From Escherichia coli (lineage in GTDB: Bacteria; Pseudomonadota; Gammaproteobacteria; Enterobacterales; Enterobacteriaceae): a DNA stretch of 64,000 bases. The stretch lies in the NCBI RefSeq assembly GCF_030013595.1, contig NZ_CP122768.1; one strand, 5' to 3'. Of the stretch, positions 4,137-46,190 are shown piece after piece; the first letter of the stretch is position 1, and each line of letters begins with the position of its first letter. The translations under genes were made by a program, and so were the position numbers. The notes beneath the pieces were generated by a model. The model had not been told where the DNA came from. It saw only the letters and a list, made by a program, of their open reading frames with translations, and did no database searches.

Positions 4137-4442
4137 TCAATATACATTTTGCACCTTCGAGATAGTAATGGCTGTTACTGTAACATGGGTTACAAACAGC
4201 TTCATACCCAGAGCTACTGATGTATCAACACGATTCAACAATACCCGATATTTATTCCATGCCTCCAGCAACGATCTTTCTTCCTCCGTTGCGATTTCCA
4301 GATCTACAGCATCCTGCAGTGGCGCAATATACTCACTGAATTCCTGGATGTAGAACTGTGTGGTGACGGTCTTCCAGCCATTCGGCTCCTGCTGTATCGA
4401 AGCATACCAGGCTATTTCAATATCGCTATGCTGCGGCAGCAT
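4137..4442 (-). pseudogene. Tail fiber assembly gene remnant (tfaX-like)
   Basis: 101-aa ORF whose N-terminal ~40 aa aligns with the C-terminal region of the Tfa at 5222-5806 (APLQDAxDLEIATE..[18 protein letters not shown]) and then diverges. Confidence 0.6.
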
Positions 4443-5221: not shown

Positions 5222-5806
5222 TTACTCCCTGACAGGGTTCGTAGGCCACTCAATATCAGGTGCAGTTGATGTATCAACACGGTTCAGCAACACCCGATAC
5301 TTTTTCCAGGCTTCCAGCAACGAGGTTTCTCCCTCCGTTGCGATTTCCAGATCTGCAGCATCCTGAAGTGGCGCAATATGCTCACTGGCTACCTGCATCA
5401 GGCTGTTTTTTGTTTCTTCCGCCTCCCGGATCCGGAACAGTTTTTCTGCTTCTGCATCTTTCACCCAGGTTGTGCCGTTCCACTTCTGAAACTCCCCTTC
5501 CGGGGATAACCAGGTGACATTTTCCGGTAATGAGCCGAGTTCAGAAATAAATAACGCGTCGCCGGAAGCCACGTCATAGACGGTTTTACCCCGATGGTCT
5601 TCAACGAGATGCCACGATGCCTCATCACTGTTGAAAACAGCCACAAAGCCAGCCGGAATATCTGGCGGTGCAATATCGGTACTGTTTGCTGGCAGACCTG
5701 TATGAGGCGGAATATATGCGTCACCTTCACCAATAAATTCATTAGTTCCGGCCAGCAGATTATAAATTTTTATGGTCCGTGGTTGTTCACTCATTCTGAA
5801 TGCCAT
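5222..5806 (-). CDS. tfa: Tail fiber assembly protein Tfa
   Basis: 194-aa ORF immediately downstream of stf; lambda Tfa-like sequence. Confidence 0.85.
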
Positions 5807-15455: not shown

Positions 15456-15784
15456 CAGTTCACCACCTGTTCAAACTCTGCGCTGAACTCAACACGCAGC
15501 ATACTGACCCGCGACGACCATTTTGCGCAGGTCACCTTTATCTGCCGCCACTCATAAGGCGGCGTCCACAGAAAGGCTTTCCAGCCCCCGTGCTCTTCCA
15601 GAAACGACTCCAGTACCGTGGCCTCCTCACGGGGGACAGAAAGCGTCACGCTGTACGTTTTCAGGTTGGCATTCAGCCCGGCAGGCGCTCGCTGGGAATA
15701 GCCATCACCAAAGCGCACCTTTCTTACAGAAGGGGCCGAAGCCACATCCATACCGGGTTTCACTTTCCAGCGGAAGGTTTTCAT
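15455..15784 (-). CDS. M: Minor tail protein M
   Basis: 109 aa, lambda gpM-like. Confidence 0.9.
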   Translation of the reverse strand: MKTFRWKVKPGMDVASAPSVRKVRFGDGYSQRAPAGLNANLKTYSVTLSVPREEATVLESFLEEHGGWKAFLWTPPYEWRQIKVTCAKWSSRVSMLRVEFSAEFEQVVN

Positions 15785-18342
15785 CGTCCACCTCCGGAGA
15801 ACAGTCCACCATCACGCATCTGTGTCTGAATTTCATCACGGGCACCCTTGCGGGCCATGTCATACACCGCCTTCAGAGCAGCCGGACCTATCTGCCCGTT
15901 CGTGCCGTCGTTGTTAATCACCACATGGTTATTCTGCTCAAACGTCCCGGACGCCTGCGACCGGCTGTCAGCCAGACTGCCCGGTGTACCGACATAACCA
16001 CCGGTGGCATAGCCGCGCATCAGCCGGTAGAGATTCCCCACGCCAATCCGGCTGGTTGCCTCCTTTGTGAAGACAAATTCACCACGGTGAACAATCCCCG
16101 CTGGCTCATATTTGCCGCCGGTTCCCGTAAATCCTCCGGTTGCAAAATGGAATTTCGCCGCAGCGGCCTGAATGGCTGTACCGCCTGACGCGGATGCGCC
16201 GCCACCAACAGCCCCGCCAATAGCGCTGCCGATACTCCCGACAATCCCCACCATTGCCTGCTTAAGCAGAATTTCTGTCATCATGGACAGCACGGAACGG
16301 GTGAAGCTGCGCCAGTTCTGCTCACTGCCGGTCAGCATCGCCGCCATATTCTGTGCAATACCATCAAAGGTCTGCGTGGCTGCACTTTTTACCTGCGACA
16401 TACTGTCCGTGGCGCTCTCTTCCCACTCACTCCAGCCGGACTTCAGGCCTGCCATCCAGCTCCCGCGAAGCTGGTCTTCAGCCGCCCAGGTCTTTTTCTG
16501 CTCTGACATGACGTTATTCAGCGCCAGCGGATTATCGCCATACTGTTCCTTCAGGCGCTGTTCCGTGGCTTCCCGTTCTGCCTGCCGGTCAGTCAGCCCC
16601 CGGCTTTTCGCATCAATGGCGGCCCGTTTTGCCCGTTGCTGCTGTGCGAATTTATCCGCCTGCTGCGCCAGCGCGTTCAGGCGCTCCTGATACGTAACCT
16701 TGTCGCCAAGTGCAGCCAGCTGGAGTTTGTACTCCAGCGTCTCATCTTTATGCGCCAGCAGGGATTTCTCCTGTGCAGACAGCTGGCGACGTTGCGCCGC
16801 CTCCTCCAGTACCGCGAACTGACTCTCCGCCTTCCACAAATCCCGGCGCTGCTGGCTGATTTTCTCATTTGCTCCGGCATGCTTCTCCAGCGTCCGGAGT
16901 TCAGCCTGAAGCGTCAGCAGGGCAGCATGAGCACTGTCTTCCTGACGATCGCCCGCAGACACCTTCACGCCGGACTGTTTCGGCTTTTTCAGCGTCGCTT
17001 CATAGTCCTTTTTCGCCGCCGCCATCAGCGTGTTGTAATCTGCCTGCAGAATTTTCCCGTCCTTCAGTGCCTTGTTCAGTTCTTCCTGACGGGCGGTATA
17101 TTTCTCCAGCGGCGTCTGCAGCCGTTCGTAAGCTTTCTGCGCCTCTTCGGTATATTTCAGCCGTGACGCTTCAGTATCGCTCTGCTGCTGCGCATTTTTG
17201 TCCTGTTGACTCTGCTGTTCAGCCTTCTTTCTCGCGGCTTCAAGCGCAAGACGGGCCTTTTCACGATCATCCCAGTAACGCGCCCGCGCTTCATCGTTAA
17301 CAAAATAATCATCCTTGCGCAGACTCCAGATGTCGTCCGCTTTCTTAAACGCAGCCTCTGCCTTAATCAGCATCTCCTGAGCGGTATCAGGACGACCAAT
17401 ATCCAGCACCGCATCCCACATGGATTTGAATGCCCGCGCTGTCCTGTCTGCCCAGGTCTCCAGCGTACCCATGTTCTCTTTCAGGCGGCGGGTCTGGTCA
17501 TCAAACCCTTTCGTCGCGGCCTCGTTCGCCGCCTGCAATGCCCCGGCTTCATCGCCGGAACGCTGCAACTGAGCAACATACGCAATCTGCTCCGCCGTCA
17601 CGTTATGGAACTGGCGTGCCATCGCTGTCAGCCCTGACGTCGGGTCTGTGGTCAGCTTCCCGAAGGCTTCAGCGACCTTGTCCACCTCCACGCCGGATGC
17701 AGAGGAGAAACGCGCCACACTCTGGCTGATGGATGCAATCTGAGCCTCACCGCTTACTCCCGCCTTAACCAGTGCGCTGAGTGACTCGCTGGTCTGGTTA
17801 AACGTCAGCCCTGCCGCCTGCCCGGCTCTGGACAGGACCAGCATACGATCTGCCGTCAGACCCGACTGATTGCCGGAAAGGACCAGCGTTTTGTTGAAAT
17901 CGGACAGGGTTGAGTTGCCCTGATACCAGGCATACGCCAGCGCACCGGTCGCCACCGCCAGCGAGGTGGCCCCGACCATCGGCAGGGTGATCGCACCGGC
18001 AAGCCCCCTGAACATGGGGATCATCCCGCCGAAGGAGTCCTTCACCTGACCACCCTGTTGCAGCAGGATCAGCCACGGACTTTGCCCGCCTGCAAGCTGC
18101 GTGGCCACGTCGGTGAACTGCGCAGGCAGCATACGCATGGCAGCTTTATACTGCCCGACGGAAATCCCCGCTTTCTGTGCAGCCAGCGCCTGTCGGCTCA
18201 GCGACTGTTCAACGACTGCCGCTGTTTTTTTCGCATCACTTTCCGTACCGGAAAAATGACGCCTGACTCTGGCCATCTGCTCGTCAAATCTGGCCGCATC
18301 CAGACTTAAATCAACGACCAGATCGCCTACCGGTTCAGCCAT
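15781..18342 (-). CDS. H: Tail tape measure protein H
   Basis: 853 aa, lambda gpH length and sequence. Confidence 0.9.
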   Translation of the reverse strand: MAEPVGDLVVDLSLDAARFDEQMARVRRHFSGTESDAKKTAAVVEQSLSRQALAAQKAGISVGQYKAAMRMLPAQFTDVATQLAGGQSPWLILLQQGGQVKDSFGGMIPMFRGLAGAITLPMVGATSLAVATGALAYAWYQGNSTLSDFNKTLVLSGNQSGLTADRMLVLSRAGQAAGLTFNQTSESLSALVKAGVSGEAQIASISQSVARFSSASGVEVDKVAEAFGKLTTDPTSGLTAMARQFHNVTAEQIAYVAQLQRSGDEAGALQAANEAATKGFDDQTRRLKENMGTLETWADRTARAFKSMWDAVLDIGRPDTAQEMLIKAEAAFKKADDIWSLRKDDYFVNDEARARYWDDREKARLALEAARKKAEQQSQQDKNAQQQSDTEASRLKYTEEAQKAYERLQTPLEKYTARQEELNKALKDGKILQADYNTLMAAAKKDYEATLKKPKQSGVKVSAGDRQEDSAHAALLTLQAELRTLEKHAGANEKISQQRRDLWKAESQFAVLEEAAQRRQLSAQEKSLLAHKDETLEYKLQLAALGDKVTYQERLNALAQQADKFAQQQRAKRAAIDAKSRGLTDRQAEREATEQRLKEQYGDNPLALNNVMSEQKKTWAAEDQLRGSWMAGLKSGWSEWEESATDSMSQVKSAATQTFDGIAQNMAAMLTGSEQNWRSFTRSVLSMMTEILLKQAMVGIVGSIGSAIGGAVGGGASASGGTAIQAAAAKFHFATGGFTGTGGKYEPAGIVHRGEFVFTKEATSRIGVGNLYRLMRGYATGGYVGTPGSLADSRSQASGTFEQNNHVVINNDGTNGQIGPAALKAVYDMARKGARDEIQTQMRDGGLFSGGGR

Positions 18343-18769
18343 ACCGGACTCCTCCTGCGATCCCTTCTGATACTGTCATCAGCATTACGTCATCCTCCGT
18401 CATGTCCGCCACATCCGGGGAAACGGGGATAACTTCATTCACGTCCGGGCCAAAGCGGACGCCTCCGGCAAGCCCTGCCGCTTTCTGCATCAGCACATCA
18501 TCTTCAGGCTCTTCGTCAGCCTCACGCCGGTTCAGCAGACTGAAATCCAGCGGATGCATATCCGGATCGCTGAAAAACAGGCTGAGCACGGTGTACGTCA
18601 GCCCGGAAAAGTGCATATCCAGCAGAACATCATGAAAATAATGGGTACTGTAAAAGCGGTGCCAGTCGGCATACTCCGTGGATGACATCCCGGCAAGCAT
18701 GGCACGCCAGTCGGGTCGCCCCATCTCGCGCGCCAGTTTCAGGGCAAAGCTCAGCTCACCGTCGAACAC
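18335..18769 (-). CDS. T: Tail assembly chaperone T (expressed as G-T fusion by -1 frameshift)
   Basis: 144-aa ORF in the -1 frame overlapping the 3' end of G; slippery heptamer GGGAAAG on the minus strand at 18769-18775. Confidence 0.8.
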   Translation of the reverse strand: MFDGELSFALKLAREMGRPDWRAMLAGMSSTEYADWHRFYSTHYFHDVLLDMHFSGLTYTVLSLFFSDPDMHPLDFSLLNRREADEEPEDDVLMQKAAGLAGGVRFGPDVNEVIPVSPDVADMTEDDVMLMTVSEGIAGGVRYG

Positions 18770-19173
18770 TTTCCCGCAGAAACAGGCTCTGCAGGCCCGG
18801 CGTCCTCTGCCTGTTCAGGGGCATCATTCACCACAAACTCATACATACCGGACAGCCGGTACACCACGTTTTCAGCATGAGAAATTGCCTCTGTGGGCCA
18901 GGTGGTAAGCACTTCCTGCTCAATCTGTTTAACGGCTTCATTCATGGAAGGCTGCTTTGTCTTCTGCGGATGGTTATGCCACAGGGACATAGCCACCACA
19001 AAAGCACCGGTTCTGATGGCGTCTTCCACAGTAAACTTCCGGTTGCTGTCTGACTCCGCCTGTTCTGCCTGCCGTTTCATCAGGGCGAGATGCTCAATAC
19101 GCTGCAGGGCTGACAGTTCAGAAAGCGTGACGGTCACGCCGTTATGTTCAAATGATTCGGTTTTCAGGAACAT
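18751..19173 (-). CDS. G: Tail assembly chaperone G
   Basis: 140 aa, lambda gpG-like. Confidence 0.9.
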   Translation of the reverse strand: MFLKTESFEHNGVTVTLSELSALQRIEHLALMKRQAEQAESDSNRKFTVEDAIRTGAFVVAMSLWHNHPQKTKQPSMNEAVKQIEQEVLTTWPTEAISHAENVVYRLSGMYEFVVNDAPEQAEDAGPAEPVSAGKCSTVS

Positions 19174-19188
19174 CGCTGACTCTCCGGA

Positions 19189-19929
19189 TTAACTGTCGGT
19201 GACAGTGATTTCTGCAACCGCAGCAAGTTCACCATTACCGGATACAACCGGAATGTTGACCTTACCTGCAGCAACGCCTTTCACGGTGATGGTCATACCA
19301 CTGACCGACACGGTGGCTTTTGTTTTATCCGCAGACACCGCACGAAAGCTCTTGTCGGTTACGCCCTCCGGCTGGAAGGCCACGGTCAGCGTGGTGCTCT
19401 GCCCTTTCACCACCGAGGTGCTGGCAGGCGTCACGGTCATGCCGGTTGCCGCTGTTACCGTGCTGCGATCTTCTGCCATCGACGGACGTCCCACATTGGT
19501 GACTTTCACCGTGCGGGTGATCACTTCCTTCGCCGTCACCGCCTTACCGATACTGCTGACCCAGCCACGGAACACATCGACCGTGCCGTTCGGGAAGCGG
19601 ATTTTATAGGCACGGGTATCGCCTTCATTAAACCACGCCAGCAGCGCCTGCTGCCCCTGCTCTCCGGGCATCCACGCCAGCGTGAAGCTGGTATCTCCGG
19701 CAGATTTCTGCCCCTGCCCGGTCGCAGTCCAGTCTGCATCTTCATCATCGAGATAGCTGTCGTCATAGGACTCAGCGGTCAGTTCGCCGGGCGTCAGGTC
19801 TTTAACTTTTGCCAGACGCGACCAGTCAACGTCTGAAAGCGGATTCGCATAAGGGTCACCGCTCCCCTTATAAACCCACAGGGTGGTCCCGGCACCTTTC
19901 ACCGGCATTACAGGATTTGGTACAGGCAT
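19189..19929 (-). CDS. V: Major tail protein V
   Basis: 246 aa from MPVPNP; lambda gpV-like with C-terminal Ig-like domain. Confidence 0.9.
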
Positions 19930-24463: not shown

Positions 24464-28144
<3,681 letters not shown>

Positions 28145-28170
<26 letters not shown>

Positions 28171-28879: not shown

Positions 28880-29078
28880 CGTAACCTGTCGGATCGCCGG
28901 AAAGGACCCGCAAAATGATAATAATTATCATCTACATGTCACAACGTGCATCTACGCCATCAAACCACGTCAAATAATCAATTATGACGCAGGTATCGTA
29001 TTAATTGATCCGCATCAACTTAACGTAAAAACAACTTCAGACAATACAAATCAGCGACACTGAATACGGGGCAACCTC

Positions 29079-29273
29079 ATGTCAACGAAGAACAGAACCC
29101 GCAGAACAACAACCCGCAACATCCGCTTTCCTAACCAAATGATTGAACAAATTAACATCGCTCTTGATCAAAAAGGGTCCGGGAATTTCTCAGCCTGGGT
29201 CATTGAAGCCTGCCGTCGGAGGCTAACGTCAGAAAAGAGAGCATATACATCAATTAAAAGTGATGAAGAATGA
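29079..29273 (+). CDS. YlcI-like small protein
   Basis: 64-aa ORF resembling DLP12 ylcI. Confidence 0.6.
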   Translation: MSTKNRTRRTTTRNIRFPNQMIEQINIALDQKGSGNFSAWVIEACRRRLTSEKRAYTSIKSDEE

Positions 29274-29437
29274 ACATCCCGCGTTCTTCCCTCCGAACAG
29301 GACGATATTGTAAATTCACTTAATTACGAGGGCATTGCAGTAATTGAGTTGCAGTTTTACCACTTTCCTGACAGTGACAGACTGCGTGTTGGCTCTGTCA
29401 CAGGTTAAGTAGTTTGAATGATTAGCAGTTATGGTGA

Positions 29438-29644
29438 TCAGTCAACCACCAGGGAATAATCCTTCATATTATTATCGTGCTTCACCAACGCTGCCTCAAT
29501 TGCCCTGAATGCTTCCAGAGACACCTTATGTTCTATACATGCAATTACAACATCAGGGTAACTCATAGAAATGGTGCTATTAAGCATATTTTTTACACGA
29601 ATCAGATCCACGGAGGGATCATCAGCAGATTGTTCTTTATTCAT
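29438..29644 (-). CDS. YbcW-like small protein
   Basis: 68-aa ORF resembling DLP12 ybcW. Confidence 0.6.
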
Positions 29645-29887
29645 TTTGTCGCTCCATGCGCTTGCTCTTCATCTAGCGGTTAAAATATTACTTCAAATCT
29701 TTCTGTATGAAGATTTGAGCACGTTGGCCTTACATACATCTGTCGGTTGTATTTCCCTCCAGAATGCCAGCAGGACCGCACTTTGTTACACAACCAATAC
29801 TATTAATTGAAAACATTCCTAATATTTGACATAAATCATCAACAAAACACAAAGAGGTCAGACCAGATTGAAACGATAAAAACGATA

Positions 29888-30340
29888 ATGCAAACTACGC
29901 GCCCTCGTATCACATGGAAGGTTTTACCAATGGCTCAGGTTGCCATTTTTAAAGAAATATTCGATCAAGTGCGAAAAGATTTAAACTGTGAATTGTTTTA
30001 TTCTGAACTAAAACGTCACAATGTCTCACATTATATTTACTATCTAGCCACAGATAATATTCACATTGTGTTAGAAAACGATAACACTGTGTTAATAAAA
30101 GGACTTAAAAAGGTTGTAAATGTTAAATTCTCAAGAAATACGCATCTTATAGAAACGTCCTTTGATAGGTTGAAATCAAGAGAAATCACATTTCAGCAAT
30201 ACAGGGAAAATCTTGCTAAAGCAGGAGTTTTCCGATGGGTTACAAATATCCACGAACATAAAAGATATTACTATACCTTTGATAATTCATTACTATTTAC
30301 TGAGAGCATTCAGAACACTACACAAATCTTTCCACGCTAA
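29888..30340 (+). CDS. YbcV-like protein
   Basis: 150 aa from ATG at 29888 ([12 protein letters not shown]); DLP12 ybcV-like. Confidence 0.65.
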
Positions 30341-30630
30341 ATCATAACGTCCGGTTTCTTCCGTGTCAGCACCGGGGCGTTGGCATAATGCAATACGTGT
30401 ACGCGCTAAACCCTGTGTGCATCGTTTTTAATTATTCCCGGACACTCCCGCAGAGAAGTTCCCCGTCAGGGCTGTGGACATAGTTAATCCGGGAATACAA
30501 TGACGATTCATCGCACCTGACATACATTAATAAATATTAACAATATGAAATTTCAACTCATTGTTTAGGGTTTGTTTAATTTTCTACACATACGATTCTG
30601 CGAACTTCAAAAAGCATCGGGAATAACACC

Positions 30631-30924
30631 ATGAAAAAAATGCTACTCGCTACTGCGCTGGCCCTGCTTATTACAGGATGTGCTCAACAGACGTTTACTG
30701 TTCAAAACAAACAGACAGCAGTAGCACCAAAGGAAACCATCACCCATCATTTCTTCGTTTCTGGAATTGGGCAGAAGAAAACTGTCGATGCAGCCAAAAT
30801 TTGTGGCGGCGCAGAAAATGTTGTTAAAACAGAAACCCAGCAAACATTCGTAAATGGATTGCTCGGTTTTATTACTTTAGGCATTTATACTCCGCTGGAA
30901 GCGCGTGTGTATTGCTCAAAATAA
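30631..30924 (+). CDS. bor: Bor lipoprotein (serum resistance)
   Basis: 97 aa with lipobox LITGC; Bor-like sequence; opposite strand to the lysis genes. Confidence 0.85.
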   Translation: MKKMLLATALALLITGCAQQTFTVQNKQTAVAPKETITHHFFVSGIGQKKTVDAAKICGGAENVVKTETQQTFVNGLLGFITLGIYTPLEARVYCSK

Positions 30925-30955
30925 TTGCATGAGTTGCCCATCGATATGGTCAGCT

Positions 30956-31429
30956 CTATCTGCACTGCTCATTAATATACTTCTGGGTTCCTTCCAGTTG
31001 TTTTTGCATAGTGATCAGCCTCTCTCTGAGGGTGAAATAATCCCGTTCAGCGGTGTCTGCCAGTCGGGGGGAGGCTGCATTATCCACGCCGGAGGCCGTG
31101 GTGGCTTCACGCACTGACTGACAGACTGCTTTGATGTGCAACCGACGACGACCAGCGGCAACATCATCACGCAGAGCATCATTTTCAGCTTTCGCATCAG
31201 CTAACTCCTTCGTGTATTTTGCATCGAGCGCAGCAACATCACGCTGACGCATCTGCATGTCAGTAATTGCCGCGTTCGCTAGCTTCAGTTCTCTGGCATT
31301 TTTGTCGCGCTGGGCTTTGTAGGCGATTGCGTTATCACGGTAATGATTGACCGCCCATGACAGGCTGACGATGATGCAGATAATCAGAGCGGATATAATC
31401 GCGGTTACTCTGCTCACTGTTGCCCCCAC
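30956..31429 (-). CDS. rz: Spanin inner-membrane subunit Rz
   Basis: 157 aa with N-terminal TM segment and coiled coil; overlaps the endolysin 3' end. Confidence 0.8.
31015..31197 (-). CDS. rz1: Spanin outer-membrane lipoprotein Rz1, embedded in Rz
   Basis: 60-aa ORF in the +1 frame inside Rz; lipobox VVGC; proline-rich. Confidence 0.7.
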
Positions 31430-31911
31430 AAACAGACTTCACGCTCAATCTCACGACGAGTCATCAGGCCTTTCCATTGCTTACCGCCAGCGTATGTCCA
31501 GCGACGCAGCTGATCACATGCGCCTTTGATATCGCCCTGGTTTATTTTGCGAAGAAGCGTCGATGTTCTAAAATTGCCAGCACCCACATTGTAAACGAAT
31601 GAGTAAAGAGCGCCGCGCGTTGTTTCCGGTATATCGACTTTGATATACGGGTTAATTTGTCTGGCGACAGTGGCAAGGTCTTTATTCAAGAGTGCTTTGC
31701 ATTCTGCTTTGGTATACGTTTTACCGAGCATGATGTCTTTTCCGGTGTGTCCGTGACATACAGTCCATACACCAACAATATCTTTGTATGGTATGTAGCT
31801 GACACCTTCCAGACCATCGTTACCACTTGGGCCAGTGATTAACACTGATGCTATAGCAATTGCTCCGCCACCAATAGCAGCAGCAACGGCTTTTCGTAAT
31901 GATGGAGGCAT
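31414..31911 (-). CDS. SAR endolysin (lysozyme, phage-21 R type)
   Basis: 165 aa; Gly/Ala-rich weakly hydrophobic N-terminal SAR segment; E..D..T lysozyme catalytic pattern. Confidence 0.85.
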
Positions 31912-32126
31912 TATTCACCTCTCGCAGCCTTGCGCTTATCTTCTTTAATCTTGAAATAAAGGTTTGTCAGGTACGTCAGCAGGCCAAATACCAGGCTACC
32001 CAGCACACCTATTGCTGCCCACTGTGAGGGAGTGACTTTATCGAGCAGCTGTAAAAACCAGTAACCGGCACTACCTGCTGAGGTGCCATAGGCGACTCCA
32101 GTTGTTAACTTATCCATGAATTTCAT
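31911..32126 (-). CDS. Pinholin (S21-like holin)
   Basis: 71 aa from [23 protein letters not shown]; two TM segments; phage-21 pinholin-like. Confidence 0.8.
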
Positions 32127-32713
32127 AACCCCACCTCGCAGACAAAGCGGGTGTAAATTGAGGGAATACAACGTATCGCAAAAAAGCAGAAACGTAACTG
32201 ACTCCGAGTCAGTGAATAACTCAGGTATTGAGTTATCAGCTAATATCGAGACTCAAAAAATGGAAAAACCAGCTCGACGGCGGGTTTAAGCTGTGTGACG
32301 AAGTAACCACTCTTAACAGCATAACCAATTTTTTACGTACGTAAACCACTGAATGATATTTATGAGAATGCTACCGAGTGTTCAAAACATCACCACAAAT
32401 ACATAAGAAAACCTCAACAAATAACCAATAAATAATTTCCAGTGTTATTTTTAGCCGGTTTAAATTAAACAGACGAATTATAGAACCACCATAAATAACA
32501 GCCATTAATATAAATTAGCTAATAGATTTATTTTTGTTCAAATAAGAGCCATAAATAGGTTTCGATAGAAAAAGTTCAGATAAAAATAGAGATCTACTTC
32601 ACAAATTAAATGAGAAACTAAAACTTACATCTTGAAATAATCACATTGATTAGATGAATATTTATCGCGCAGTGACATCATTTTTTAATAATAGTTCAAA
32701 AAAAGGGCTCACG

Positions 32714-33811
32714 ATGAAAAAATTAACAGTGGCAATTTCTGCTGTAGCTGCATCAGTACTGATGGCGATGTCTGCTCAGGCAGCTGAAATTTATAATAAA
32801 GACAGTAACAAGCTGGATCTGTACGGGAAAGTTAATGCCAAGCACTACTTTTCCTCTAACGATGCAGATGATGGTGATACTACTTATGTTCGTCTGGGCT
32901 TCAAAGGCGAAACCCAAATCAACGATCAGCTGACTGGTTTCGGTCAGTGGGAATATGAATTCAAAGGCAACCGCGCTGAATCTCAAGGTTCCTCCAAAGA
33001 CAAAACCCGTCTTGCATTTGCAGGCCTGAAATTCGGTGACTACGGCTCAATCGATTACGGCCGTAACTACGGTGTAGCATACGACATCGGTGCGTGGACT
33101 GACGTTCTGCCAGAATTCGGTGGCGATACCTGGACCCAAACAGATGTGTTCATGACTGGTCGCACCACTGGTGTTGCAACCTATCGTAACAACGACTTCT
33201 TTGGTCTGGTTGATGGTCTGAACTTTGCTGCTCAGTACCAAGGCAAAAACGATCGTAGCGATTTCGATAACTACACCGAAGGTAACGGTGATGGCTTCGG
33301 TTTCTCTGCTACCTATGAATACGAAGGATTCGGTATCGGTGCAACTTATGCGAAATCTGATCGTACCGACACTCAAGTTAATGCAGGGAAAGTTCTTCCT
33401 GAAGTATTTGCTTCCGGTAAAAATGCAGAAGTTTGGGCCGCAGGTCTGAAATATGACGCTAACAACATTTACCTGGCCACTACCTATTCTGAAACCCAGA
33501 ATATGACTGTATTTGCTGATCACTTCGTTGCTAATAAAGCTCAAAACTTCGAAGCTGTTGCACAATATCAGTTCGATTTCGGTCTGCGTCCGTCCGTTGC
33601 TTACCTGCAATCTAAAGGTAAGGATCTTGGAGTATGGGGCGATCAGGACTTAGTCAAATATGTTGATGTAGGTGCAACCTATTACTTCAACAAAAATATG
33701 TCTACTTTCGTTGATTACAAAATCAACCTGCTTGACAAAAATGACTTCACTAAAGCACTCGGTGTAAGCACTGATGACATCGTTGCTGTAGGTCTGGTTT
33801 ACCAGTTCTAA
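32714..33811 (+). CDS. nmpC: Outer membrane porin NmpC (OmpD-like), intact
   Basis: 365 aa from [11 protein letters not shown]; general porin sequence ending in F; lies between Q and the lysis genes on the opposite strand, as in DLP12. Confidence 0.9.
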
Positions 33812-33820
33812 TCTGATTAC

Positions 33821-33861
33821 GAAAAAGATATGTTGCGGGAGGCGTTGCCTCCCCAACATAT
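33821..33861 (-). terminator. Candidate tR' late terminator downstream of Q
   Basis: Long hairpin atatgttgcgggagg..cctccccaacatat followed by a U-run on the minus strand, ~150 nt after the Q stop. Confidence 0.5.
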
Positions 33862-33948
33862 AAGTGGCTCCCTCAAGCCACTTCCTTTAGGAGCACAACC
33901 TTGCTTCTAACTATATAAACCTTCTGTTATATATTACCCTTTATTTTT

Positions 33949-33974
33949 GGGGGCGTTGCAACGCCCCATTTTTA
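33949..33974 (+). terminator. Intrinsic terminator downstream of nmpC
   Basis: Perfect palindrome ggggcgttgcaacgcccc followed by ttttt. Confidence 0.65.
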
Positions 33975-34000
33975 ATAACTTTCAGTAAACAATTGGCATA

Positions 34001-34384
34001 TTAATTAGAGTTATTAACAACGATATCCATCTCTAACCGGATATCTAATGCCATTAACATCCCTTCAATTATGCCCTCAGCCTTCTGTAACCTTTTCCCG
34101 ATATAACCATCAGAGCAGCAATGCTTACCTGCCAGTGACATGAATGTCATACCGACTACATAATAATCTACTAATAAATCGTGCAAATCGCTGTTGTTCT
34201 TTTTCAGACGGGCCATGCACCCGCAAATAATCATCGCGTCATCGTCACAACATTGCGGGCGAGATTTTACTTTTGAAGGAATTAATCCCTTAAAACCGGC
34301 GGCAATGGACGACCAGGTCACATCTTCATGATTATTAGCCGCCCACGCTCCCCAACGTTCAAGAACCATCTGAATATCACGCAT
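34001..34384 (-). CDS. Late antiterminator Q (phage-21 / DLP12 QuuD type)
   Basis: 127 aa from [18 protein letters not shown]; Cys-rich Q-like sequence. Confidence 0.85.
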
Positions 34385-34401
34385 TAACTTTCTCCACAAA
34401 A

Positions 34402-44708: not shown

Positions 44709-45079
44709 TGGAGCCATACAGCCTCACACTCGATGAGGCCTGTCAGTTTCTTAAGATATCCAGACCAACCGCCACCAACTGGATACGAACAGGCCGCCTA
44801 CAGGCAACACGTAAAGATCCAACCAAGCCAAAATCTCCTTACCTCACAACACGGCAAGCTTGCATTGCGGCGCTTCAGTCTCCGCTGCATACTGTCCAGG
44901 TGAGCGCGGGTGATGGCATAACAGAGGAAAGAAAATGTCACTCTTCCGCAGAAATGAAATATGGTATGCCTCGTATTCGCTCCCGGGCGGGAAACGAATT
45001 AAGGAATCTCTTGGCACAAAGGACAAGCGGCAAGCTCAGGAGTTGCACGACAAGCGAAAAGCAGAACTCTGGCGAGTAG
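44708..45079 (+). CDS. xis: Putative excisionase (Xis)
   Basis: ATG at 44708 overlapping the upstream stop (TAATG); N-terminal HTH-like region ([31 protein letters not shown]); overlaps the int start out of frame; the 3' end is uncertain. Confidence 0.5.
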
Positions 45080-46098
45080 AAAAGCTAGGGGATTTACCTG
45101 ATGTCACTTTTGAAGAGGCCTGCCTAAGATGGCTTGAGGAAAAAGCTGATAAAAAATCTCTCGATTCAGATAAAAGCCGGATTGAGTTCTGGCTTGAACA
45201 TTTTGAGGGTATAAGGCTTAAAGATATCTCGGAGGCAAAGATTTACTCTGCTGTAAGCAGAATGCATAACAGAAAGACGAAAGAAATATGGAAACAGAAA
45301 GTTCAGGCCGCCATCAGGAAAGGTAAAGAACCGCCTGTTTATGAACCAAAGCCAGTATCAACTCAGACAAAGGCAAAGCATCTTGCCATGATAAAGGCCA
45401 TTCTCCGTGCTGCAGAACGCGACTGGAAGTGGCTGGAAAAAGCGCCTGTCATCAAGATACCAGCGGTCAGAAACAAGCGAGTCAGATGGCTGGAAAAGGA
45501 GGAAGCAAAACGCCTTATTGATGAGTGCCCCGAACCACTGAAATCTGTCGTCAAGTTTGCGCTGGCAACTGGTCTGAGAAAGTCGAACATCATAAATCTG
45601 GAATGGCAACAAATCGACATGCAGCGACGAGTTGCCTGGGTGAATCCAGAAGAGAGCAAATCAAACCGCGCCATTGGTGTGGCGCTGAACGATACCGCCT
45701 GTAAAGTGTTGCGTGATCAAATAGGCAAGCATCACAAATGGGTGTTTGTACATACCAAGGCGGCTAAGCGAGCAGATGGAACATCAACGCCTGCGGTCAG
45801 GAAGATGCGCATCGACAGCAAGACATCATGGCTATCAGCTTGTCGTCGTGCAGGAATTGAAGATTTCCGTTTCCATGACCTCAGACACACCTGGGCAAGC
45901 TGGCTGATCCAGTCAGGCGTCCCATTATCTGTGCTTCAGGAAATGGGCGGATGGGAGTCCATAGAAATGGTTCGTAGGTATGCTCACCTTGCGCCTAATC
46001 ATTTGACAGAGCATGCAAGGAAAATAGACGACATTTTTGGTGATAATGTCCCAAATATGTCCCACTGTGGAATTATGGAGGATATAAAGAAGGCGTAA
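44935..46098 (+). CDS. int: Tyrosine integrase (DLP12 IntD type)
   Basis: 387 aa; C-terminal catalytic region with HDLRHT..Y; ends 16 bp from argU. Confidence 0.9.
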
Positions 46099-46113
46099 CT
46101 GATTGAATTGTAA

Positions 46114-46190
46114 TGGCGCGCCCTGCAGGATTCGAACCTGCGGCCCACGACTTAGAAGGTCGTTGCTCTATCCAACTGAGCTAAGGGCGC
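46114..46190 (-). tRNA. argU: tRNA-Arg (UCU) argU
   Basis: Reverse complement gcgcccttagctcagttggatagagcaacgaccttctaagtcgtgggccgcaggttcgaatcctgcagggcgcgcca is a cloverleaf with anticodon TCT and terminal CCA. Confidence 0.9.

What the first reader, a model, noticed from the sequence alone, without database searches (positions are those of the whole stretch)
18765..18780. Conserved G-T programmed -1 frameshift site
The slippery heptamer GGGAAAG is present on the minus strand at 18769-18775 where the G and T frames overlap, consistent with the lambda mechanism for making the G-T fusion.
Basis: partly seen in the sequence, partly recalled or inferred. Interest (0 to 1): 0.25.

Follow-up and report, generated by a model that had tools for sequence, protein, structure and literature searches.

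The report
Lambda-type G-T tail chaperone frameshift site
This is the well-known "slippery" sequence of phage lambda, sitting in a lambda-like prophage of E. coli, where about 1 in 25-30 ribosomes is expected to slip back one base and make the G-T fusion protein needed to build the phage tail; it is real but ordinary and already known.

Summary
GGGAAAG lies on the minus strand at 18769-18775 and reads G_GGA_AAG in the zero frame of a gpG homologue (19173..18751, 140 aa). It sits 22 nt before the G stop, inside the 64-nt stretch where the -1 (T) frame is already open. A -1 slip gives a 279-aa G-T fusion.

The 40 nt around the site are identical to phage lambda. G is 96% and T 99% identical to lambda gpG and gpT. 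The genes lie between the major tail protein V and the tape-measure protein H. In 76 of 77 complete homologues from viral contigs the heptamer is at the same distance from the stop. More distant clades keep a slip site at the same place (A_AAA_AAG or G_GAA_AAG).

This is the lambda G/G-T programmed -1 ribosomal frameshift, present in about 65% of complete E. coli genomes. It is already known and of low interest.

Two side notes:
- The prophage's terminase large-subunit gene carries an in-frame amber codon (26842-26844), so the prophage is probably packaging-defective.
- A possible conserved RNA structure starts 7 nt after the slip site. It shows moderate, inconclusive statistical support as a stimulator.

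The parts
18769..18775 (-). Slippery heptamer G_GGA_AAG (Gly-Lys in both frames); site of the -1 shift
   Evidence: Identical to lambda. Present 22 nt before the G stop in 76 of 77 homologues.
18751..19173 (-). Gene G: tail assembly chaperone gpG, 140 aa, the zero-frame product (stop TGA at 18751-18753)
   Evidence: ORF. 96% identical to lambda gpG. Pfam PF06894 Phage_TAC_2, E=4.9e-59.
18335..18769 (-). T segment: the -1 frame read after the slip (144 codons plus stop). It is annotated in databases as a separate GTG-start CDS but is expected to be made only as the C-terminal half of G-T.
   Evidence: 99% identical to lambda T. Pfam PF06223 Phage_tail_T. Weak Shine-Dalgarno before the GTG, -2.2 kcal/mol.
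18335..19173 (-). G-T fusion coding region: 19173..18769 joined to 18769..18335, with base 18769 read twice; 279 aa
   Evidence: Conceptual translation. Same length (279 aa) as Sharma et al.'s gpG cluster G_GGA_AAG_4. Joined CDS annotated in phage 434 and phage LLS.
18751..18814 (-). Overlap window in which both the G frame and the -1 (T) frame are open (64 nt)
18691..18761 (-). Candidate 3' RNA structure (unproven). The outer 8-bp stem pairs 18754-18761 with 18691-18698 and starts 7 nt after the heptamer. It encloses a hairpin at 18700-18735.
   Evidence: MFE folds in 7 lineages. 98% of cells paired in 25 distinct sequences, with 2 compensatory pairs. Native fold beats synonymous recodings, fraction 0.028. 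3 of 90 control windows are as extreme. A plain 100-nt fold gave z=-1.65. Sharma et al. rated their 54-nt hairpin at this site as near background.
19189..19929 (-). Gene V homologue (major tail tube protein), immediately upstream of G
   Evidence: Pfam Phage_TTP_12, E=2e-70. tblastn mapping.
15781..18342 (-). Gene H homologue (tape-measure protein, 853 aa), immediately downstream; its start overlaps the end of T by 8 nt
   Evidence: Pfam TMP_2 and Tape_meas_lam_C..

Best explanation
This is the programmed -1 ribosomal frameshift site of a lambda-type tail assembly chaperone gene pair (G and T) in a lambdoid prophage integrated next to tRNA-Arg(UCU) in E. coli.

Most ribosomes translating G read GCG GGA AAG, continue for five more codons and stop, giving gpG (140 aa). 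A small fraction, about 3-4% in lambda, slips back one base. This happens while tRNA-Gly occupies GGA in the P site and the single E. coli tRNA-Lys (anticodon mnm5s2UUU, which pairs weakly with AAG) occupies the A site. The tRNAs re-pair with GGG and AAA. Translation then continues in the -1 frame for 144 more codons and yields the 279-aa G-T fusion.

By homology with lambda, gpG and the G part of G-T coat the tape-measure protein H. The T part recruits the major tail protein V so that the tube polymerises around H. Neither protein ends up in the virion, and the roughly 30:1 G:G-T ratio set by the slip frequency is needed for tail assembly.

Shown here: the sequence, phase, frame architecture, homology, gene order and conservation. 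Inferred from lambda literature: the slip frequency, the tRNA mechanism, the chaperone role, and that T is not made on its own.
For: - Site and frames: the heptamer is in the X_XXY_YYZ phase, the -1 ORF is 146 codons long from the heptamer's first base, and the fusion is 279 aa.
- Lambda identity: the junction is identical to lambda over 40 nt. G is 96% and T 99% identical to lambda.
- Families: Pfam Phage_TAC_2 and Phage_tail_T, flanked by tail-tube and tape-measure families. PHROG 32165, a 290-position profile, matches G over its first half and T over its second half, so that family is a fused G-T protein.
- Conservation: 76 of 77 complete homologues at 69-100% aa identity carry GGGAAAG 22 nt before the stop. 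Diverged clades keep a slip site at the same place: A_AAA_AAG in CP-1639, and G_GAA_AAG in the N15/HK225/phi80-like loci scanned, with two disrupted loci and one GGCAAAG variant as the exceptions.
- Uniqueness: it is the only in-frame slippery heptamer in the late genes that opens onto a long -1 ORF.
- No independent T start: the Shine-Dalgarno before the annotated T start is weak.
- Database annotation: a joined 'GT frameshift product' CDS in phage 434 and a frameshift-site feature in phage LLS.
- Literature: G_GGA_AAG is the lambda G/GT slip site, with the zero frame kept about 96% of the time, dependence on tRNA-Lys U34 thiolation, a 30:1 ratio, and roles in binding H and V. G_GGA_AAG is among the most shift-prone heptamers in E. 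coli. The gpG cluster is listed as a true -1 PRF case.
Against: Nothing in the sequence argues against it. Caveats:
- No protein or ribosome-profiling data exist for this locus.
- RefSeq and the lambda GenBank record annotate G and T as two separate CDSs.
- The prophage's terminase gene has an amber codon. The frameshift may therefore no longer contribute to viable phage production in this host.
- The naked heptamer gives only 0.28% frameshifting in reporter assays. The ~4% figure therefore needs some context effect that is not established.
Confidence: 0.95

Rival explanations
1. T is an ordinary, independently initiated gene starting at the GTG at 18769, as annotated in RefSeq and the lambda GenBank record. 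On this reading the heptamer merely overlaps its start codon and has no recoding role.
For: Separate G and T CDSs are annotated in lambda NC_001416, ev207 and E. coli CH4799. The ORF listing reports a GTG-start ORF at 18335..18769.
Against: - The SD-antiSD duplex upstream of the GTG is only -2.2 kcal/mol, with about 3 nt spacing. It ranks among the weakest of 24 late-gene starts, most of which are -4 to -12.
- The slip motif, not the GTG, is what is conserved. In the CP-1639 and N15/phi80-like clades the codon at that position is GCA, GCC or GTC, not a start codon, yet the -1 ORF and slip site persist.
- PHROG 32165 is a fused G-T family.
- Reviews describe T as made only as part of gpGT.
Confidence: 0.03
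2. The site is a true lambda-type frameshift signal by descent, but in this genome it is a functionally idle relic. The prophage is defective, so the G:G-T ratio no longer matters for anything.
For: There is an in-frame TAG at 26842-26844 in the terminase large-subunit gene, where the closest relative has GAG. The prophage carries DLP12-type genes at the argU site, where K-12 has the cryptic DLP12 prophage (the K-12 comparison is from general knowledge).
Against: All other late genes from Nu1 to tfa are full length, without stops, and 89-100% identical to an apparently intact prophage. G, T, V and H are intact, so the single nonsense mutation looks recent. It could also be suppressed in a supE-type host or be a sequencing error. 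This rival concerns present-day use, not what the site is.
Confidence: 0.35
3. The two products arise by transcriptional slippage (RNA polymerase adding or dropping a base in the A run), not by ribosomal frameshifting.
For: Some phage and bacterial genes use transcriptional slippage to reach a second frame (Atkins review). The CP-1639-type relatives have a 6-A run.
Against: The run here is only three A's flanked by G's, much shorter than the long homopolymer runs associated with polymerase slippage (general knowledge). In lambda the efficiency depends on tRNA-Lys U34 modification, which is a translational effect. The review explicitly contrasts lambda GT ribosomal frameshifting with transcriptional slippage.
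Confidence: 0.01
4. The heptamer is a chance occurrence in the overlap and no programmed event takes place.
For: GGGAAAG occurs 14 times in the window. 17 in-frame X_XXY_YYZ heptamers occur in the late genes without any obvious recoding role.
Against: The expected number in the 21-codon overlap is about 0.05. The site shows identical placement in 76 of 77 homologues, and a slip motif persists in clades where G is only about 40% identical. The identical lambda sequence is the experimentally established lambda slip site according to the reviews read.
Confidence: 0.01

Closest known systems
Bacteriophage lambda genes G and T (gpG / gpG-T), -1 programmed ribosomal frameshift at G_GGA_AAG (Levin, Hendrix & Casjens 1993; Xu, Hendrix & Duda 2004, 2013, 2014, as cited)
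   Same: The heptamer, phase, distance to the G stop and 64-nt overlap are the same. The 40 nt around the site are identical. Product sizes of 140 and 279 aa match. G is 96% and T 99% identical. The gene order V-G-T-H is the same.
   Different: There are five amino-acid changes in G, two in T, and a few synonymous differences. The element is a chromosomal prophage at tRNA-Arg(UCU) with DLP12-type lysis and accessory genes and an amber codon in terminase A, not lambda itself.
N15 / HK225 / phi80 / mEp213-type G-T chaperone pairs with slip site G_GAA_AAG
   Same: They share the architecture, the position of the slip site (Lys AAG codon 15 nt before the stop ...GAGCTGA), and a nearly identical T N-terminus, LAREFGRPDWRAMLAGM. 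Phage LLS is annotated with a -1 frameshift site GGAAAAG.
   Different: The P-site codon is GAA rather than GGA, so only the A-site A_AAG tetramer can re-pair perfectly. G is only about 40-46% identical.
CP-1639 / Sakai ECs1801-type prophage tail assembly chaperone with A_AAA_AAG
   Same: The position in the G/T overlap and the T-frame sequence are the same. It is listed with the gpG cluster as a true -1 PRF case by Sharma et al..
   Different: The heptamer is different (A_AAA_AAG). G is 40% identical.
E. coli dnaX (gamma/tau) and IS911/IS3 orfAB -1 frameshift signals
   Same: They use the same class of heptamer ending in A_AAG and the same dependence on weak AAG decoding by E. coli tRNA-Lys.
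   Different: Those sites have demonstrated upstream SD-like and downstream hairpin or pseudoknot stimulators and much higher efficiencies. With such stimulators GGGAAAG gave 3.8% (IS911) and 43% (IS3), against 0.28% naked. In dnaX the shift gives a shorter product. No SD-like element was found upstream for the gpG cluster, and any 3' stimulator is unproven.

Membership tests
Lambda-type tail assembly chaperone G/G-T with programmed -1 frameshift | Two overlapping ORFs located between the major tail (tube) protein gene and the tape-measure gene | tested here: met
   V homologue at 19189-19929, G at 18751-19173, T at 18335-18769, H at 15781-18342, all on the minus strand.
Lambda-type tail assembly chaperone G/G-T with programmed -1 frameshift | The upstream ORF is a gpG-family chaperone | tested here: met
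   Pfam PF06894 Phage_TAC_2, 198 bits against a cutoff of 27. 96% identical to lambda gpG.
Lambda-type tail assembly chaperone G/G-T with programmed -1 frameshift | The downstream ORF is in the -1 frame relative to the first and belongs to the T family | tested here: met
   -1 frame shown. Pfam PF06223 Phage_tail_T, 54 bits against a cutoff of 25.9. 99% identical to lambda T.
Lambda-type tail assembly chaperone G/G-T with programmed -1 frameshift | [quoted passage not shown] | tested here: met
   G_GGA_AAG at 18769-18775, phase confirmed, 22 nt before the G stop.
Lambda-type tail assembly chaperone G/G-T with programmed -1 frameshift | The slip site is conserved among homologues | tested here: met
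   76 of 77 complete homologues. A slip motif is kept at the same position in three diverged clades.
Lambda-type tail assembly chaperone G/G-T with programmed -1 frameshift | The second ORF lacks its own translation initiation signal and is made only as a fusion | tested here: inconclusive
   The SD before the annotated GTG is weak at -2.2 kcal/mol, and relatives have non-start codons at that position. Absence of free T can only be shown experimentally.
Lambda-type tail assembly chaperone G/G-T with programmed -1 frameshift | Fusion protein produced at a low fixed ratio (about 1:30) and required for tail assembly, but absent from virions | not testable with these tools
   Known for lambda from the literature. 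There are no expression data for this locus.
-1 PRF signals with a defined 3' RNA stimulator (IS3/IS911/dnaX type) | A stable, conserved structure 5-9 nt downstream that raises efficiency | tested here: inconclusive
   A candidate 71-nt structure has a 7-nt spacer. Pairing is 98% but 14 of 22 pairs are invariant and only 2 are compensatory. The recoding test gives a fraction of 0.028, and 0.003-0.065 in 9 of 10 lineages. 3 of 90 control windows are as extreme. The 100-nt fold gave z=-1.65. Sharma et al. scored their predicted hairpin as near background, ddG/nt 0.020 against a threshold of 0.09. No Rfam family matched.

The most novel reading that the evidence does not exclude
The lambda-type G-T site may not be a bare slippery heptamer. 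A conserved two-helix RNA element would start 7 nt downstream: an outer stem pairing 18754-18761 with 18691-18698, enclosing a hairpin at 18700-18735. It would act as a moderate stimulator. That would explain why lambda shifts at about 4% when the naked heptamer gives 0.28% and the heptamer with a moderate stimulator gives 3.8%. It would also explain part of the extreme conservation of the first 27 codons of T.
Probability: 0.25. Interest if true: 0.35.

Novelty: already known. Interest (0 to 1): 0.1.

Why it matters
The finding confirms that this window holds a lambda-like prophage whose tail-assembly module is intact and carries the classic recoding signal. Its practical value is for annotation. 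RefSeq and the lambda reference record still list G and T as two separate genes. The real second product is expected to be a 279-aa fusion, and this locus occurs in about 65% of complete E. coli genomes. Scientifically it adds nothing new to a mechanism described in 1993. The only open thread is whether a downstream RNA structure tunes the slip frequency.

Tried and rejected
- Plain folding: folding the 100 nt downstream of the site gave z=-1.65 against dinucleotide shuffles, which is not significant on its own.
- Rfam: the gathering-threshold scan of the whole window gave only IS009 and one tRNA, with no known frameshift element.
- Primary literature: the G:GT ratio paper (PMC3762263) is not held (one search was a malformed query). 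Statements about the ratio therefore rest on reviews. Levin et al. 1993 was also not available, so I could not check what that paper says about downstream sequence requirements.
- Literature search for a stimulator: a search for an explicit statement on a lambda G-T stimulator returned only the two reviews already read.
- Script errors: the first prophage-integrity script read the wrong record from a multi-record file, and its output is void; it was redone correctly. Protein comparison on the terminase failed because of the internal stop, which was itself informative.
- Covariation: the test for the candidate structure had little power because the T N-terminus is almost invariant at protein level.
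- Rejected readings: independent initiation of T, transcriptional slippage, and chance occurrence (see rivals).

Full report
**1. The observation**

- Reading the minus strand of 18400-19300 shows ...GAG CCT GTT TCT GCG GGA AAG TGT TCG ACG GTG AGC TGA.
- A pattern search places GGGAAAG on the minus strand at 18769-18775, exactly as reported.
- The ORF 19173..18751 (minus, 140 aa) ends ...PVSAGKCSTVS*. The heptamer starts at offset 398 of that ORF, the third base of a codon, so the zero frame reads G_GGA_AAG, the canonical X_XXY_YYZ phase for tandem -1 slippage.
- The -1 frame is open from 18814 to a stop at 18335-18337. The two frames overlap for 64 nt (18751-18814) and the heptamer lies inside that overlap.
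- Joining 19173..18769 to 18769..18335 gives a 279-aa protein.

**2. Is it more than chance?**

- The bare heptamer is common: 14 copies on both strands of the window against 7.5 expected.
- In the correct phase it is rare. Across 7193 codons of the prophage late genes there are 17 in-frame X_XXY_YYZ heptamers, or about 0.05 expected in a 21-codon overlap.
- This is the only G_GGA_AAG among them. It is also the only one followed by a long -1 ORF: 146 codons, against 2-48 for the other sixteen.

**3. What it is**

*Similarity to known phages*
- The 951-bp region is 97-99.9% identical to lambda-group phages, including ev207, 434, 21 and lambda itself.
- Aligned with lambda NC_001416, phage 434 and ev207, the 40 nt around the heptamer are identical in all four.
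- The G product is 135/140 identical to lambda gpG. The T segment is 142/144 identical to lambda T.

*Protein families and gene order*
- Pfam assigns G to Phage_TAC_2 ("lambda tail assembly chaperone, protein G") and T to Phage_tail_T.
- The upstream neighbour is a lambda-type tail tube protein. The downstream neighbour is a tape-measure protein with the lambda C-terminal domain.
- PHROG 32165, a 290-position profile, matches G with its first half and T with its second half, so that family is a fused G-T protein.
- The gene order V-G-T-H and the 8-nt T/H overlap are as in lambda.

**4. Conservation**

- A scan of viral contigs with a G-protein alignment returned 80 loci at 69-100% amino-acid identity. 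Of the 77 with a complete G, 76 carry GGGAAAG exactly 22 nt before the G stop. The exception has a truncated G.
- More distant relatives keep a slip motif at the same position:
  - GGGAAAG in PhiR12_2 and the Stx2a phages (about 75% nucleotide identity).
  - A_AAA_AAG in CP-1639 and Stx1a phages.
  - G_GAA_AAG in HK225, mEp213, LLS and the N15/phi80-like viral contigs scanned. Exceptions are two disrupted loci and one GGCAAAG variant. G in these clades is only about 40-46% identical.
- The constant element is the Lys AAG codon 15 nt before a ...GAGCTGA stop.
- In several of these clades the codon that corresponds to the "GTG start" of T is GCA, GCC or GTC. This argues against T being initiated there.

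**5. How it works**

*Steps inferred from the lambda literature*
- G_GGA_AAG is the lambda G/GT slippery sequence and encodes Gly-Lys in both frames.
- The zero frame is maintained about 96% of the time. The remainder slip -1, bypass the G stop and make gpGT.
- Both Lys codons are read by the single tRNA-Lys (mnm5s2UUU). Loss of U34 thiolation raises the slip rate and lowers phage yield.
- gpG and the G part of gpGT bind the tape-measure protein. The T part binds the major tail protein and starts its polymerisation. Neither is in the virion, and the roughly 30:1 ratio is crucial.
- G_GGA_AAG is among the most shift-prone heptamers in E. coli. Sharma et al. list the gpG cluster (G_GGA_AAG_4; 135 aa to the end of the motif, 279-aa frameshift product, 141-codon zero frame) as a true -1 PRF case.

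*Supporting tests run here*
- The SD-antiSD duplex before the annotated T GTG is -2.2 kcal/mol. Most late-gene starts are -4 to -12.
- The A run is only three bases, which makes transcriptional slippage implausible.

**6. Stimulators: an unresolved detail**

*Why a stimulator is expected*
- Sharma et al. measured GGGAAAG at 0.277% without a stimulator, 3.80% with the moderate IS911 stimulators and 43% with the IS3 pseudoknot.
- Lambda's ~4% therefore implies some help from context.
- For this cluster they found no upstream SD-like element. They predicted a 54-nt hairpin with a 7-nt spacer in 51% of members, but its ddG/nt of 0.020 was below their 0.09 threshold.

*What I found*
- The +80-nt region folds the same way in seven lineages. 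An 8-bp outer stem starts 7 nt after the heptamer and encloses a stable hairpin.
- On 25 distinct sequences, 98% of cells are paired, against 23-44% when partners are slid. However, 14 of 22 pairs never vary and only two show compensatory changes, probably one event each.
- Against synonymous recodings of the T frame, the native sequence folds better in 9 of 10 lineages. The fraction of recodings reaching the native energy is 0.003-0.065, and 0.028 for the window.
- Among 90 control 78-nt windows from the late genes, 3 were as extreme.
- A plain 100-nt fold gave z=-1.65.

*Reading*
- I regard this as a lead, not a finding. The structure was derived from these sequences, the lineages are related, and the T N-terminus is nearly invariant at the protein level.

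**7. Context**

- The locus belongs to a lambdoid prophage of about 41 kb, roughly 5.2-46.1 kb in the window. Its integrase (44935-46098) abuts tRNA-Arg(UCU) at 46114-46190.
- It carries DLP12-type genes (quuD, essD, rrrD, rzpD, bor, ybcV, ybcW, nohD), and ompT lies beyond the tail-fibre end.
- The G-T region occurs in 3540 of 5426 complete E. coli genomes.
- All late genes from Nu1 to tfa are full length and 89-100% identical to the prophage of strain CH4799. The exception is the terminase large subunit, which has an in-frame TAG at 26842-26844 where CH4799 has GAG.
- No complete E. coli genome in the collection matches that region better than 99.5%.
- The prophage is thus probably unable to package DNA unless the amber codon is suppressed. 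This does not change what the G-T site is, but it bears on whether the site is still in use.

**8. Verdict**

- The feature is the textbook lambda G-T programmed -1 frameshift: already known and very widespread.
- Interest is low (0.1).
- The most novel reading not excluded is a conserved 3' stimulatory structure (probability about 0.25; modest interest even if true).

Noticed in passing
window 26842-26844 (minus strand), within 26245-28170: The terminase large-subunit gene (lambda A homologue, 641 codons) has an in-frame TAG amber codon at codon 443, where the closest prophage (E. coli CH4799) has GAG. All other late genes are intact. The prophage is probably packaging-defective, unless this is a sequencing error or is suppressed.
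   Followed up: partly
window 18691-18761 (minus strand): A candidate two-helix RNA structure begins 7 nt after the slip site. It is predicted in all lineages examined and has moderate but inconclusive statistical support. Sharma et al. 2014 predicted a shorter hairpin here and rated it near background.
   Followed up: partly
window 18335-19173; lambda NC_001416 9711-10549; E. coli CH4799 NZ_CM166346: The reference lambda record and RefSeq (PGAP) E. coli annotations list G and T as separate CDSs, with T starting at the GTG inside the heptamer, and have no joined G-T product. Newer phage records (434, LLS) do annotate the join. This is an annotation gap affecting thousands of genomes.
   Followed up: partly
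window 5265-5463 (minus strand): An Rfam IS009 match (225.7 bits against a gathering score of 117) lies inside the tail-fibre assembly gene region (5222-5806) at the end of the prophage.
   Followed up: no
window 44935-46190 and 29000-34400: The prophage integrase abuts tRNA-Arg(UCU). The lysis and accessory genes are DLP12-type (quuD, porin, essD, rrrD, rzpD, bor, ybcV, ybcW, ylcI, nohD). This looks like a near full-length relative of the cryptic DLP12 prophage of K-12. The early region (about 36-39 kb) is mosaic and only about 30-39% identical at protein level to that of CH4799.
   Followed up: partly
window 4212-4364: A second, partial tail-fibre-assembly (tfa) fragment, 75% identical to residues 132-182, lies beyond the methyltransferase gene. 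It is a likely remnant of another tail-fibre module.
   Followed up: no
whole window, both strands: GGGAAAG occurs 14 times against 7.5 expected, and none of 100 shuffles reached 14. Only the G-T copy is in the slippery phase within a late gene. The excess was not investigated further.
   Followed up: no
L017:1889-1995, L071, L122:989-1095 (viral contigs): Variants were seen among homologues. L017 lacks part of T and appears to have a deletion between two GACTGGC repeats. L071 has a truncated G (124 aa) without the slip site. L122 has GGCAAAG instead of GGAAAAG. These may be defective copies or natural variants.
   Followed up: no
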